A stretch of DNA of 64,000 bases from the human T2T-CHM13v2.0 reference genome, Homo sapiens (GCA_009914755.4 CP068257.2:25952001-26016000); one strand, 5' to 3'; positions 4,329 to 15,517 are shown, counted from the first letter of the stretch. A program made the numbers and translations. Notes: generated from the sequence alone by a model not told the origin.

Positions 4329-6140
4329 TACTGTAGTTTGAATCAAGATATTTCTCATGTAAATAACAATGTGAACATCTTAATTTCAGAAAATATTCTC
4401 TAATTAGACTCATTTTTTTTCTACAGTACTCTTCATTTAAACAAAATCTCAAAAGCATATAAAACACAAATGTTCTGAGTCTTGCCAACTTTTGACTACA
4501 TACATATTTGTGTACCTAGACTATATTCACAAGAGACCTACTAATGTAAACAGATAAAACATGAGTTATCAAAGAGTCTTCCCCCTTTATTTCCGAAATT
4601 CAAAATGAATGCCCTACATGCTCTTAAAACCACTCTTAGCTATTGAGAAAAACTTGAAAGCAACAATTGCTGATTGCCAAATTTTCCCATAATTCTATCT
4701 CCTAGGCATATAGAAGAATTGTAATTTTTGTCCCCCATAAAAGTAGGTAGGGCTACTTGACTTGACTTGGTCAATGAAATAAGAGCAGAAGTGACATGTC
4801 ACTGCCTCTGAAAACGAGAGCCAGTGTCTAGTTCTCCAAGCTGCCTTCTTTCCTCATGCTTCAGAAAGTATGAAGACACAACTCAAAATAAAGCTTCCAG
4901 CATCCTGGAGTCTTGAATAACTCAGATGAGGAGAGCCCCTCTGTCAAAACAGTATGAACACTTAGGATCTGCAAGGAATATACTTAGCTTTTTAACGTAC
5001 TGAGACTAGGGGATGTTTTTGTTACTTCAGCATAATCTTGCCTATCCTGACTGATACAACTACTGTTACCATCCATCGTCCACCTGTGTTTCTTTCTTTG
5101 TCTTCAGCTCAGAAATCCCTTTGGCCACACAACTGTTACAACTAGCTATCATGCAGTCACCTATGTTCTACAGATGCAGCATAAATATCCATATCCCCTA
5201 TTGTTGCTAGATGCTATTGCAAAGGAAGAGGAGATGGCCTTTTTGAAACACTGTGCCACTTGGACAGCCAAAGAACTCTGCTTATGTTGCAGTGAAACAG
5301 TATCTCTCTTTAACAACTTTATTAGTTCTAGTCATTGTCCTTGCCATGAATAGCACTGATAGTTTTACTCCTGTCTTCAAGCAACTCATTTCCGAATTAA
5401 GAGACTAAGTAGGGAAATTATGTTCTGTAACATCTCCCGTTCTCCTATTCTTTCTCTTGTCCCATGTAAATACAGCAACAAAAATCTCTGTTTTGCTCAC
5501 TTATAAAACAAATGGTCTCATGCTAATCATTGAATGTAAACAGTTGGTGGTATTGATAGGGGGCAGGCAAGTTGTTCAGGCTAGTAGAATCTGAGCCATA
5601 CTTCACCCACCAAAAAATGTCAGGTTCCAGCAATGAAACAGATCATCTGAAGCTGGTGCCTCACCTCGTTTTCCTGTTTTACCAGTGATTTTACTGAGTT
5701 TTTAAAAGCCACTGAACTATAAAACCTTTTAATCTGAAAAAGTAATAGTTCATCATAGATTCGAACTATTATGTAGTTTTTTTTTCAATTACTTACTGTC
5801 AGATTATCTTTCTCCCAATTGTTTATAAATAATGGTAATTCATATTAGACGGTACCTTTATTGGGTGATTCCTCATGTATATTTATAAGTCAGCTCATAC
5901 AAAGTTACAATTTCAAAGATACATATGAACATAAAATATTTAGAATGCAATGAAAATTCTGATTCTCTGCGAATGACTTGCTCTTAGTTTAAATTTTTTA
6001 TTAAACTGTTTCTGTAGCATAATATATTTTATATTAGATTTATTCTTCAAAAATGAGCAATAAACAAAGGCTGATTGGACCACATGATTTGACTATTTTT
6101 ATTTTGCATGTAGTGCTATAAGCCACAGATTTTTTTTTTC

Positions 6141-6439
6141 TGATTCTCATCTCCCAGTTTTCCCAGCTACCCATTTAACCAGCCAGCCACCCTCCAGTTC
6201 ATTACACACCAATGTGCTACATCTTCTTTTTATCAACTTACCCTTTTATCTAATACTTCTACCTAGTATTTTCCTAGTATTTGCACTTCATATCTCATGT
6301 ATCTAAAGTAAATACATATATTTTAAAACTTTATATTTTAAAATTTTATCAAAACAGTACATGTACAATACTTAAGCAAAATAATGTCAGTAGGTTAATA
6401 TTTTAAAATAGCAGTCACTGTCCCATCCCCTCTTCTTCA
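6141..6439 (-). other. Non-L1 segment between the host L1's canonical 3' terminus and the terminal poly-A; candidate 3' transduction
   Basis: The host L1's canonical 3' end ('ttaacttttattttagg', the reverse complement of L1's '...CCTAAAATAAAAGTTAA') with its own short A-rich tail lies at ~6440-6460. A further ~300 bp of non-L1 sequence follows, then a second poly-A (poly-T 6132-6140) and the left copy of the target-site duplication. No canonical AATAAA is evident just upstream of the terminal poly-A. Confidence 0.4.
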
Positions 6440-7123
6440 GGTTTTATTTTTATTTTTAACTTTTATTTTAGGTTTGGGGGTATTATGTGAAGGTTTGTTA
6501 CATAGGTAAACTTGTGTGATGGGGGTTTTGTTGTACATATTATTCCATCACCCAGGTATTAAGTATCCAGTAGCTACCCTTTTGCTCCTCTTCGTTCTCC
6601 TGCCATCCCACTTCAAGTAGACTCCAGTGTCTGTTGTTTCCTTCTTTGTGTTTATAAGTTCTTGTCATTTAGCTCTTATTTATAAGACAGAACATGCAGT
6701 ATTTGGTTTCTGTTCCTGCATTAGTTTGCTAAGGAAAATGGCCTCCAGCTCCATCCAAGTTTCCGCAAAGGAAATGATCTCGTTCTTTTTTTATGGCTGC
6801 ATAGTATTCCATGGTGTATATGTACCACATCATCCAATCTGTCATTGATGGGCATTTAGGTTGATTCTATGTCTTTGCCATGCCATTGTGAATAGTGCTG
6901 CAATAAACATTCACATGCATGTCTTTATGGTAGAATGATTTATATTCCTCTGGGTATATACCCAGTAATGGGGTTGCTGGGTGGAATGGTAGTTCTATTT
7001 TATAGAACATTAAGGAATTGCCATAGTGCTTTCCACAATGCTTGAATGAATTTACACTCCCACCAACAGTATATAAGTATTGCCTTTTCTCTGCAACCTT
7101 GCCAGCATCTGTAGTTTTTTGAC
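6440..7123 (-). mobile_element. Host old L1, 3' UTR and ORF2 C-terminal portion (left piece)
   Basis: This is reverse-complemented L1 3'-end sequence, including 'ccagtaatggggttgctgggt' and 'ctgcaaccttgccagcatctgtagttttttgac'. It is contiguous in L1 coordinates with the sequence that resumes at 13550. Confidence 0.8.
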
Positions 7124-7339
7124 TTTTTTTTTTTTACTTTAAATTCCAAGATACATGTGCAGACAGTGTAGGTTTGTTACATAGGTATACATGTGCCATG
7201 GTGGTGTGCTGCACCTATCAAACCGTCCTCTAGGTTTTAAGCCCCGCATTCATTCGCTATTTGTCCTAATGTTCTCCCTCCCCTCTCCCCCAATCCCTAA
7301 CAGGCCCCAGTATGTTTTGTTCACCTCCCTGTGTCCATG

Positions 7340-13600: not shown

Positions 13601-13909
13601 TTTTGTTGTTGTTGTTATTGTTGTTTTGTTTTGTTTTGTTTTGTTTTGTTTTTGTATCGAGTCTGGCTCTGTGGGTCAGGCTTGGGTGCAGTGGTGCAAC
13701 CTCGGCTCACTGCAACCTCAACCTCCACCTCCTGGATTCAAGTGTTTCTCCTCTCCTGCCTCAGCCTCCCAAGTAGCTAGGATTACAAATATGAGCCACC
13801 AAGCCCAGCTAATTTTTGTATTTTTAGTAGAGTTGGCATTTCACCATGTCGCCCAGCCTGGTCTCAAACTCCTGACCTCAGGTGATCCGCCCACCTTGGC
13901 CTCCCAAAT
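13601..13909 (-). mobile_element. Alu (older, CpG-decayed, slightly 5'-truncated), minus orientation, inserted in host L1
   Basis: A T-rich tail (ttttg)n runs 13601-13650, followed by the reverse-complemented Alu body up to '...ccaccttggcctcccaaa'. It interrupts host L1 'catctcatt|gtgg', with a short putative target-site duplication 'tcatt'. Confidence 0.85.
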
Positions 13910-13964
13910 CATTGTGGTTTTAATTTGCATTTCTCTAATGATCAGTGATATCAAACTCTTTTTC

Positions 13965-14367
13965 TTTTTTTTTTATTATTATACTTTAAGTTCTAGGGTA
14001 CATGTGCACAACATGCAAGTTTGTTACATATGTATACATGTGCCATGTTGGTGTGCTGCACCCATTAACTCCTCATTTACATTAGGTACATCTCCTAATG
14101 CTATCCCTCCCCTTTCCCCCCACCCCATGACAGGCCCTGGTGTGTGATGTTCCCCACCCTGTGTCCAAGTGTTCTCATTGTTCTATTCCCACCTATGAGT
14201 GAGAACATGCGGTGTTTGGTTTTCTGTCCTTGTGATAGTTTGCTCGGAGTGATGATTTCCAGCTTCATCCATGTCCCTACAAAGGACATGAACTCTTCCT
14301 TTTTTATGGCTGCATAGTATTCCATGGTGTATATGTGCCACATTTTCTTATTCCAGTCTATCATTGA
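13965..14367 (-). mobile_element. Nested 5'-truncated L1PA 3'-end fragment (~400 bp) inserted in host L1
   Basis: Poly-T at 13965-13974, then 'attattatactttaagttctagggtacatgtgcac...' (reverse complement of an L1PA 3'UTR) through '...cacattttcttattccagtctatcattga'. Target-site duplications are 'aactctttttc' (13954-13964) and '(a)actctttttc' (14367-14377). Confidence 0.85.
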
Positions 14368-15517
14368 ACTCTTTTTCATATGCTTGCTGGCTGCACGTGT
14401 GTCTTCTTATGAGAGGTGTCTGTTCATGTCCTTGGCCTACTTTTTAATGTGGTTGTTTTTCTCTTATAAATTCGTTGAAATTCCTTATTGATGCTGGGTT
14501 TTAGACTTTTGTCAGATGCATAGTTTGCAAATATTTTATCCTATTCTATAGGTAGTCTGTTTACTCTGTTGATAGTTTCTTTTGCTGTGCAGCAGCTCTT
14601 AAGTTTAATTAGATCCCACTTTGCTTTAGTTGCAATTGCTTTTGGTGTCTTTGTCATGAAATTTTTGCCTATTCCTATGTCTAGGATGGTATTGCCCATG
14701 TTGTCTTCCAGGGTTTTTATAGTCTTGGGTTTTACATTTAAGTCTTTAATCCTTTTCGAGTTGATTTTTGTCTATGGTTTAAGGAAAGGGTCCATGTTTA
14801 TTCTTGTGCATATGGCTAGCCACTTATTGCAGTACCATTTTTTGAACAGAAAGTCTTTTCCTCATTTCTTGTTTTTTTCAGCTTTGTTGAAGATCGAACG
14901 GTCAGAGATATGCAGCCTTATTTATGCACTCTCTATTCAGTTCCATTGGTCCATGTGTCCATTTTTGTACCAGTACCATACCATTCTGTAGCCTTGTAGT
15001 ATTGTTTGAAGTCAGGTAACATGATGCCTCCAGCTTTGTTCTTTTTGCTTAGCATTGCCTTGGCTATTCAGGCAATTGGCTTTTGGTTTCATATATATTT
15101 TAAAATAGTTTTTCCTAGTTCTGTGAAGAACGTTCTTGGTAGTTTGATAGCAATAACATAAATCTCTAAATTACTTTGGAAAGTACAGACATTTTAGTGA
15201 TATTGATTCTTCCTATCCATGAGCATGGGATTTTTTTTTTTATTTGTGCCTTCTCTGATTTTTTTGAGCAATGTTTTGTGATTCTCATTGTAGAGATTTT
15301 TCACCTCACTGGCTAGCTGTGTCCCTGGTATTTTATTATTTTTTTGTATAAGCCACAGATTAATTAATGTATCTGATTTTGGCTAGTAATATAAATCTAT
15401 TGTATCAAAGGGGCTCTGATCTAATTTCTTTAACACATTGAAATCCATAAAAGTATATAGCTTTTATCTTAGGTGAACTATTGCGGCACATTTTCACAGA
15501 CTATCAGAGGTACAGAG

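What the first reader, a model, noticed from the sequence alone, without database searches (positions are those of the whole stretch)
6117..15361. Old L1 insertion bounded by a perfect 15-bp target-site duplication and carrying a ~300-bp candidate 3' transduction
'tataagccacagatt' occurs at 6117-6131, immediately followed by T9, and again at 15347-15361, immediately after the 5'-truncation point of the old L1. The placement exactly at both ends of a poly-A-terminated block argues for a genuine target-site duplication rather than a chance 15-mer match. The canonical L1 3' terminus of this element ('ttaacttttattttagg' plus its own short A-rich tail) lies ~300 bp inside the block, at ~6440. So 6141-6439 is non-L1 sequence sitting between the L1 end and the terminal poly-A. 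That is the signature of a 3' transduction: read-through past the L1 poly-A signal into flanking DNA of the source locus. If so, the segment identifies the progenitor L1's genomic flank.
Basis: partly seen in the sequence, partly recalled or inferred. Interest (0 to 1): 0.5.

Follow-up and report, generated by a model that had tools for sequence, protein, structure and literature searches.

The report
Old L1 with probable 3' transduction
An ancient, truncated human L1 retrotransposon sits between a perfect 15-bp target-site duplication and carries about 300 bp of non-L1 DNA behind its normal end, most likely flanking DNA copied along from its parent locus; this is a common and well-described by-product of L1 copying.

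Summary
TATAAGCCACAGATT occurs exactly twice in the window, at 6117-6131 and 15347-15361. The two copies bracket one unit that reads in sense on the minus strand. In order it contains: a 5'-truncated old L1 starting at about ORF2p residue 765; three later nested insertions (a young L1PA fragment, an Alu and a full-length 6.4-kb L1, each with its own TSD); the canonical old-L1 terminus ...CCTAAAATAAAAGTT at 6458; a 16-nt A-rich tail; 302 bp of non-L1 sequence (X, 6140-6441); and A8.

Two other old L1 copies in the window end at the same motif, so the L1 3'UTR does not normally run through X. X matches no L1 or Alu in the window and no Rfam or Pfam family. It has no terminal inverted repeats and no TSD of its own.

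A 3' transduction is the best reading (about 0.7) but is unproven. The tools cannot search the human genome or run RepeatMasker, so no source locus was found. X also lacks an intact poly(A) signal; the only candidate is GTTAAA, 34 nt upstream of the tail.

Minor corrections: the tail is A8, not A9, and X starts at 6140. This is a known phenomenon, seen in about 10% of reference L1s, and of low interest.

The parts
15347..15361 (.). Target-site duplication, 5' copy in L1 sense (AATCTGTGGCTTATA on the minus strand)
   Evidence: Exact 15-mer, one of only two in the window. It abuts the L1 5' truncation point with TA/ATA microhomology.
14366..15346 (-). Old L1, ORF2 piece 1. The 5' truncation point lies at about ORF2p residue 765 of 1275.
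   Evidence: Translations align to human LINE-1 ORF2p at residues 765-827 (E 1.5e-17) and 927-1066 (E 5e-51). Collinear with the nested full-length L1 at 72.8% identity.
13965..14365 (-). Later nested insertion: young L1PA-type 3' fragment (401 bp with tail), with its own 11-bp TSD GAAAAAGAGTT
   Evidence: Junction sequences and sequence reading. Not part of the original event.
13909..13964 (-). Old L1, ORF2 piece 2 (includes the second copy of the 11-bp TSD of the young L1 fragment)
   Evidence: Sequence continuity with the nested L1 reference
13601..13908 (-). Later nested insertion: 5'-truncated Alu with an (AAAAC)n-type tail
   Evidence: Sequence reading, junctions, tail repeat. The Alu identification rests on my own knowledge of the Alu consensus.
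13551..13600 (-). Old L1, ORF2 piece 3
   Evidence: Collinear with the nested L1 reference
7129..13550 (-). Later nested insertion: full-length (~6.4 kb) older-L1PA-type L1 with 5'UTR, decayed ORFs and an A12 tail; own TSD AAAAAGTCAA
   Evidence: Junctions, sequence, ORF list
6458..7128 (-). Old L1, end of ORF2 plus 3'UTR, ending in the canonical terminus CCTAAAATAAAAGTT (6472-6458)
   Evidence: The same terminal motif ends two other old L1 copies in the window.
6442..6457 (-). Internal A-rich tract AAAAATAAAAATAAAA. Inferred to be the genomic poly(A) tail of the source L1, copied as part of a read-through transcript.
   Evidence: Sequence. Its length is similar to the tails of the two other old L1 copies, 17-18 nt. 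The assignment to the source L1 is inference.
6140..6441 (-). X: 302 bp of non-L1, AT-rich (32% GC) sequence; candidate 3'-transduced flank
   Evidence: No other copy in the window and no similarity to the window's L1s or Alus. No Rfam hit. No Pfam hit in any frame. No terminal inverted repeats. No homologue of its longest frame in the protein collection.
6174..6179 (-). GTTAAA: the only hexamer within one mismatch of AATAAA/ATTAAA in the last 60 nt of X, 34 nt before the tail. Possibly a decayed poly(A) signal.
   Evidence: No canonical or common variant signal lies within 60 nt of the tail. The function is inferred and weak.
6132..6139 (-). Terminal poly(A) tail (A8 in sense; T8 on the plus strand)
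   Evidence: The T-run 6130-6139 is 10 nt, of which 2 belong to the TSD
6117..6131 (.). Target-site duplication, 3' copy in L1 sense
   Evidence: Exact 15-mer. The reconstructed empty site gives a first-strand nick at 5'-GATT/AATT-3', a variant of the L1 endonuclease site TTTT/AA (the consensus is from my own knowledge).

Best explanation
This is a single ancient L1 retrotransposition event in the human lineage that carried a 3' transduction.

Proposed sequence of events:
1. A source L1 of the old type that ends ...CTAAAATAAAAGTT (L1PB/L1MA-like) was transcribed through its own weak AATAAA signal and its genomic A-rich tail (now AAAAATAAAAATAAAA) into about 300 bp of downstream flanking DNA (X).
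2. The read-through RNA acquired or ended in an A-tract.
3. L1 endonuclease nicked the target at 5'-GATT/AATT-3'.
4. Target-primed reverse transcription started on the terminal A-tract and copied X, the old tail and the L1 3' part. It stopped or was resolved within ORF2, at about residue 765.
5. The staggered second-strand break produced the 15-bp duplication.
6. An Alu, a full-length L1 and a young L1PA fragment later inserted into the old L1 and inflated the block to 9.2 kb.

Shown directly: the TSD, the L1 identity and its collinear pieces, the position of the canonical L1 end, the non-L1 nature of X, and the nested insertions with their own TSDs.

Inferred: that X was co-mobilised from a source locus, and that the internal A-rich tract is the source element's tail.
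For: - The exact 15-bp duplication sits precisely at both ends of the unit and nowhere else.
- The reconstructed empty site gives an L1-endonuclease-like nick, TT/AA.
- The 5' end is L1 ORF2 from about residue 765 and abuts the TSD directly.
- The four old-L1 pieces are collinear with a full-length L1. Each interruption has its own TSD.
- The canonical terminus lies at 6458. Two other old L1 copies in the window, one of them 82% identical, end at the same motif followed only by a 17-18-nt A-rich tail. X is therefore not normal 3'UTR.
- X has no similarity to the L1s or Alus in the window and no Rfam match. It has no Pfam match, no terminal inverted repeats and no relative of its longest frame in the protein collection.
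- Only 8 A lie between X and the TSD. That is little room for X's own tail, an A-rich private TSD and a remnant of the L1 tail, all of which a second insertion would need.
- Base rate: about 10% of reference L1 insertions carry 3' transductions (PMC4862182), and about 25% of somatic insertions (PMC13009371 abstract).
Against: - No source locus or sibling copy was found, and none could be sought. The genome, viral and metagenome scans returned nothing, not even this locus.
- There is no intact poly(A) signal within 60 nt of the terminal tail. The only candidate is GTTAAA, one mismatch from ATTAAA, and 34 nt is at the long end of normal spacing.
- RepeatMasker/Dfam could not be run, so X could still be a low- or mid-copy interspersed repeat that I did not recognise.
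- A perfect 15+15 bp TSD is somewhat unexpected for an element this old. If each copy had diverged about 10% per site, the chance of it staying perfect is about 4%.
Confidence: 0.68

Rival explanations
1. Two events. The old L1 inserted with an ordinary long poly(A) tail. An unrelated element X later inserted into that tail. X could be a 5'-truncated retrocopy of a cellular mRNA 3' end, or an interspersed repeat I could not recognise, such as a solo LTR or a fragment. The A8 next to the TSD would then be what remains of the L1 tail, X's own tail, or both.
For: - A-tails are preferred L1-endonuclease targets, and an insertion there gives the same orientation and an invisible all-A TSD.
- X begins (C)TG and ends CA(G), as LTRs do.
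- No poly(A) signal precedes the terminal A-run. That fits an element which brings no tail of its own.
- RepeatMasker was not available.
Against: - X is not L1, Alu or a known small RNA.
- It has no terminal inverted repeats.
- Its longest frame has no relatives in a collection that does contain human repeat-derived ORFs.
- Only 8 A remain to hold a split tail, a private TSD and possibly a second tail.
- The internal tract (16 nt) is already as long as the complete tails of the other old L1 copies.
- The prior for a non-Alu, non-L1 insertion landing in one given 20-30-bp tail is well under 1%, against about 10% for a transduction. This figure is my own estimate; the transduction rate is.
Confidence: 0.17
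2. A single event that is a template-switch chimera. Reverse transcription started on the poly(A) tail of an unrelated ~300-nt RNA or RNA 3' fragment (X). It reached that RNA's 5' end and jumped to the 3' end of a polyadenylated L1 RNA, giving L1-An-X-An within one TSD.
For: The same anatomy as observed: one TSD around two A-terminated modules. L1-mediated chimeric retrocopies are documented (my own knowledge: Buzdin et al. 2002-2003).
Against: - The known chimeras mostly carry small nuclear RNAs such as U6 as the 5' module and L1 or mRNA as the 3' module, which is the reverse of the order here.
- X matches no Rfam family.
- X lacks a poly(A) signal.
- The process is much rarer than 3' transduction.
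Confidence: 0.07
3. Passenger model. The L1 was already dead at the source locus. A longer host transcript containing the L1 fragment, its tail and X (for example a 3'UTR) was retrocopied in trans and 5'-truncated. On this view the block is a processed-transcript retrocopy, not an L1 copying itself.
For: The internal tail is already degenerate (A5T A5T A4), as in an aged genomic tail. A perfect TSD would be easier to explain if the insertion is younger than the L1 sequence looks.
Against: - L1 cis-preference makes trans-mobilisation far rarer (my own knowledge).
- A full-length older-L1PA element is nested inside, so the insertion is itself old.
- Nothing in the sequence requires this model.
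Confidence: 0.05
4. The 15-mer pair is a chance match and the block has no defined ends.
For: With up to 2 mismatches, 3 of 100 shuffles gave two or more matches.
Against: The match is exact, with a chance expectation of about 1e-4. It lies precisely at the L1 5' truncation point and directly after the terminal A-run.
Confidence: 0.01

Closest known systems
L1 3' transduction (Holmes 1994; Moran 1999; Pickeral 2000; Goodier 2000; Szak 2003, as cited in PMC4862182)
   Same: The order TSD / 5'-truncated L1 / canonical L1 3' end / A-rich remnant of the source tail / non-L1 sequence / terminal poly(A) / TSD. A length of about 300 bp is typical. It depends on read-through of the weak L1 AATAAA signal.
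   Different: No intact downstream poly(A) signal can be seen. The source locus is not identified. The event is tens of millions of years old, so the source may be decayed or lost.
Ordinary 5'-truncated L1 insertion by target-primed reverse transcription
   Same: A 15-bp TSD, a TT/AA-type nick site, a poly(A) end, truncation within ORF2 and microhomology at the 5' junction.
   Different: It carries 302 bp of non-L1 DNA and a second, internal A-rich tract between the L1 end and the terminal tail.
L1-mediated chimeric retrocopies formed by template switching (e.g. U6-L1 chimeras)
   Same: Two RNA-derived modules inside one TSD with a poly(A) 3' end.
   Different: The module order is reversed, with L1 as the 5' module. 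The junction is at the end of a complete L1 tail. X is not a recognisable small RNA.
Tandem retroposon insertions into pre-existing poly(A) tails
   Same: Same-orientation, A-terminated modules in series.
   Different: No second TSD is visible. X is not Alu, L1 or a small RNA. Very little A-tract is left downstream of X.

Membership tests
L1 insertion by target-primed reverse transcription | Sequence is L1 (ORF2 / 3'UTR) | tested here: met
   Matches to human LINE-1 ORF2p at E 1.5e-17 and 5e-51. Collinear with a full-length L1 in the window.
L1 insertion by target-primed reverse transcription | Target-site duplication of roughly 4-25 bp flanking the whole insertion | tested here: met
   Exact 15-bp duplication at both ends. 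The size range is from PMC4862182.
L1 insertion by target-primed reverse transcription | Poly(A) at the 3' end and a T-rich/AA endonuclease nick site | tested here: met
   A8 next to the TSD. The reconstructed nick is 5'-GATT/AATT-3', a partial match to TTTT/AA.
L1 3' transduction | The canonical L1 3' end lies internal to the TSD-bounded unit, and the extra sequence is not normal L1 3'UTR | tested here: met
   The terminus CCTAAAATAAAAGTT is at 6472-6458. Two other old L1 copies end at the same motif plus a tail. X has no L1 similarity.
L1 3' transduction | The extra sequence is unique (non-mobile) DNA and not an independent repeat with its own TSD | tested here: inconclusive
   Not Alu or L1. 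No Rfam or Pfam match. No inverted terminal repeats. No private TSD visible. No relatives in the protein collection. RepeatMasker/Dfam was not available.
L1 3' transduction | A downstream poly(A) signal 10-30 nt before the new tail | tested here: not met
   No AATAAA, ATTAAA or common variant within 60 nt. The only candidate is GTTAAA, 34 nt upstream. Given the age of the insertion, decay of a hexamer is plausible, so this weakens the case but does not exclude membership.
L1 3' transduction | Terminal poly(A) and a TSD that enclose L1 plus the extra sequence together | tested here: met
L1 3' transduction | A source locus: the same sequence found directly 3' of an L1 of the same subfamily elsewhere in the genome | not testable with these tools
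   No tool searches the human genome. Scans of the genome, viral and metagenome collections did not even recover this locus.
Independent retroposon inserted into the L1 tail | Belongs to a known mobile family and has its own TSD | tested here: inconclusive
   Not Alu, L1 or an Rfam RNA. A private TSD made only of A's could not be distinguished.
Cut-and-paste DNA transposon | Terminal inverted repeats | tested here: not met
   No inverted repeat joins the two ends of X.

The most novel reading that the evidence does not exclude
X is not a transduced flank. Instead it is the 3' part of a cellular polyadenylated RNA fused to an L1 RNA by reverse-transcriptase template jumping onto the end of the L1 poly(A) tail. 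That would be a chimera in the reverse module order from the well-known U6-L1 type. Alternatively, X is a copy of an undescribed low-copy poly(A) retroposon.
Probability: 0.07. Interest if true: 0.25.

Novelty: already known. Interest (0 to 1): 0.1.

Why it matters
It matters little beyond annotation. 3' transductions are a textbook by-product of L1 read-through transcription and affect about one in ten reference L1 insertions. If the source locus still exists, X would tag the lineage of one ancient L1 progenitor. The segment carries no recognisable exon, RNA gene or regulatory element, so no exon-shuffling or functional consequence is apparent. The locus is a tidy worked example of four generations of retroelements nested at one site.

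Tried and rejected
1. A second copy of X in the window. blastn with word size 7 found only low-complexity TTTTAAAATA-type matches.
2. X as a small-RNA retrocopy (7SL, 7SK, U RNAs, tRNA and others). Rfam at E<=10 gave only noise; the best hit was U4 at 12.6 bits against a gathering score of 46. The whole window gave nothing at gathering score.
3. X as a decayed coding fragment. No Pfam hits in any frame.
4. X as a DNA transposon. No terminal inverted repeats.
5. X as normal L1 3'UTR. Rejected by comparison with two other old L1 ends in the window.
6. Reaching human DNA through the protein-indexed collection. The two ORFs inside or overlapping X are not on record. A 229-aa junction ORF is not on record. 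A 140-aa antisense-L1 ORF retrieved one 841-bp host-DNA contig from a human bile metagenome. That fixes the species as human but does not cover X.
7. Degenerate-pattern scans for X in genome contigs, viral contigs and metagenome contigs. No relatives were found, and this locus itself was not found, so the negatives are uninformative.
8. A homology search with X's 55-aa frame. No candidates. This is weak evidence against a high-copy family, and I ran no control with a mid-copy repeat.
9. From memory I compared X with the MIR, L2 3'-end, THE1/MST/MLT and Alu consensus sequences. I saw only short, unconvincing resemblances, for example AAAATAGCAGTCACT against the L2 3' end and GAGATGAGAA against the MIR core. 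I do not count these as tests.
10. Pickeral 2000 and Szak 2003 are not held in the library.
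Full report
**Observation.** The 15-mer TATAAGCCACAGATT occurs at 6117-6131 and 15347-15361 and nowhere else in the 64-kb window, even when 2 mismatches are allowed. An exact 15-mer is expected about 1e-4 times by chance. The two copies cannot be extended in either direction. The left copy is followed by a T-run at 6130-6139. 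The right copy directly abuts L1 sequence.

**Anatomy.** Everything in the block reads in sense on the minus strand. In descending coordinates:
- 15361-15347: TSD.
- 15346-14366: old L1 ORF2.
- 14365-13965: young L1PA-type 3' fragment of 401 bp, with its own 11-bp TSD GAAAAAGAGTT.
- 13964-13909: old L1.
- 13908-13601: 5'-truncated Alu with a patterned A-rich tail.
- 13600-13551: old L1.
- 13550-7129: full-length, ~6.4-kb, decayed older-L1PA-type L1, with its own TSD AAAAAGTCAA.
- 7128-6458: old L1, ending CCTAAAATAAAAGTT.
- 6457-6442: AAAAATAAAAATAAAA.
- 6441-6140: X, 302 bp.
- 6139-6132: A8.
- 6131-6117: TSD.

The junctions are shown.

The four old-L1 pieces are collinear with the nested full-length L1 that serves as an internal reference, at about 72% identity. 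Together they make about 1.74 kb. Translations of the first piece align to solved human LINE-1 ORF2p at residues 765-827 (E 1.5e-17) and 927-1066 (E 5e-51). The element is therefore 5'-truncated inside ORF2, and the truncation point touches the TSD with a TA/ATA microhomology.

The reconstructed empty site places the first-strand nick at 5'-GATT/AATT-3', a partial match to the L1 endonuclease consensus TTTT/AA (the consensus is from my own knowledge).

The window is human. An 841-bp contig from a human bile metagenome is 99.76% identical to 14310-15150.

**Is X normal L1 3'UTR?** No. The window holds two further old L1 3' ends, at 20541-20555 (-) and 61843-61857 (+). Both stop at ...CTAAAATAAAAGTT and pass directly into 17-18-nt A-rich tails and unrelated flank. 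One of them is 82% identical to the old L1 over the last 156 bp.

**What is X?**
- It is AT-rich (32% GC) with two tiny internal tandem duplications.
- It has no second copy in the window and no similarity to any of the window's L1s or Alus.
- It has no Rfam match at E<=10 beyond noise and no Pfam match in any frame.
- It has no terminal inverted repeats.
- No sequence flanking X alone is duplicated apart from A's.
- Its longest internal reading frame has no relative in a 5.8-billion-protein collection. That collection demonstrably contains spurious ORFs from human repeats. This is weak evidence that X is not a high-copy family, and I ran no control with a mid-copy family.

**Weak points.**
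- X has no AATAAA, ATTAAA or common variant within 60 nt of the terminal A-run. The only hexamer one mismatch away is GTTAAA at 6179-6174, which lies 34 nt before the tail. At roughly 10% divergence per site, loss of a hexamer is unremarkable, but the feature is formally not met.
- The source locus could not be sought. No tool searches the human genome. The degenerate-pattern scans of the prokaryotic-genome, viral and metagenome collections did not recover even this locus, so they say nothing.
- RepeatMasker/Dfam is not available.
- A perfect 15+15-bp TSD has only about a 4% chance of surviving about 10% divergence per copy.

**Mechanism.** The most likely history is one target-primed reverse transcription event on a read-through L1 transcript.
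1. The source L1's weak signal, the AATAAA inside ...AAAATAAAAGTT, was bypassed.
2. Transcription continued through the source's genomic tail (the internal AAAAATAAAAATAAAA) into about 300 bp of flank (X).
3. The RNA ended in an A-tract that primed on the nicked target.
4. Reverse transcription ended in ORF2.
5. The staggered breaks gave the 15-bp TSD.

About 10% of reference L1 insertions show this (PMC4862182), and about 25% of somatic insertions (PMC13009371 abstract).

**Rivals.**
- A later, independent insertion of an unrecognised element into the L1 tail. This needs a rare non-Alu, non-L1 event at one specific 20-30-bp site. It must also fit a split tail, an all-A TSD and possibly a second tail into the 8 A's that remain, even though the internal tract alone is already as long as a complete old-L1 tail.
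- A template-switch chimera between an L1 RNA and another polyadenylated RNA.
- Trans-retrocopying of a host transcript in which a dead L1 was a passenger.
- A chance 15-mer match, which is effectively excluded.

I put the transduction at about 0.68 and the independent insertion at about 0.17. The chimera is about 0.07, the passenger model about 0.05 and chance about 0.01.

**Comparison with the known, and novelty.** The block works like, and most probably is, a classical L1 3' transduction. Of its defining features:
- Met: internal canonical L1 end, extra non-L1 sequence, terminal poly(A), enclosing TSD.
- Inconclusive: uniqueness of X.
- Not met: an intact downstream poly(A) signal.
- Untestable here: the source locus.

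Nothing about it is new in kind. It is an ordinary old retroelement insertion, made to look large by three later nested insertions. Interest is low.

Noticed in passing
window 33442-35320: A 1.9-kb minisatellite: 59 copies of a 33-bp unit (ATATACGTCTTTGATAAAGATATATATGTAGGC), 94% matches. It is followed by (AT)23 at 35347-35392 and an old L1 fragment from about 35628. Likely a VNTR.
   Followed up: no
window 7129-13550 (-): A full-length, ~6.4-kb older-L1PA-type L1 with 5'UTR, decayed ORF1/ORF2 and an A12 tail. It is nested in the old L1 with its own 10-bp TSD AAAAAGTCAA.
   Followed up: partly
window 13965-14365 (-): A young-looking L1PA 3' fragment of 401 bp with an 11-bp TSD GAAAAAGAGTT, inserted into the old L1's ORF2. 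Together with the Alu at 13601-13908 this makes four generations of retroelements at one site.
   Followed up: partly
window 20541-22158 (-), 35628-36627 (+), 40339-40712 (+), 61705-61857 (+): Further old L1 fragments. Two of them keep the same ...CTAAAATAAAAGTT 3' terminus plus a short A-rich tail and served as internal references for the canonical L1 end.
   Followed up: partly
window 15520-15556: A (GT)19 microsatellite about 160 bp outside the 5' TSD copy.
   Followed up: no
L001 1-841 = window 14310-15150: Contig k127_446059 of ENA assembly ERZ934847 ('human bile metagenome') is human host DNA, 99.76% identical to the window. It carries a called 140-aa 'gene' that is just an antisense reading frame of the old L1. 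This is an example of host contamination generating spurious proteins in metagenome-derived protein collections.
   Followed up: yes
window 6262-6282 and 6317-6346: Two tiny tandem duplications inside X: CCTAGTATTT x2 and TATATTTTAAAAYTT x2. They are typical of AT-rich unique DNA and have no evident significance.
   Followed up: no
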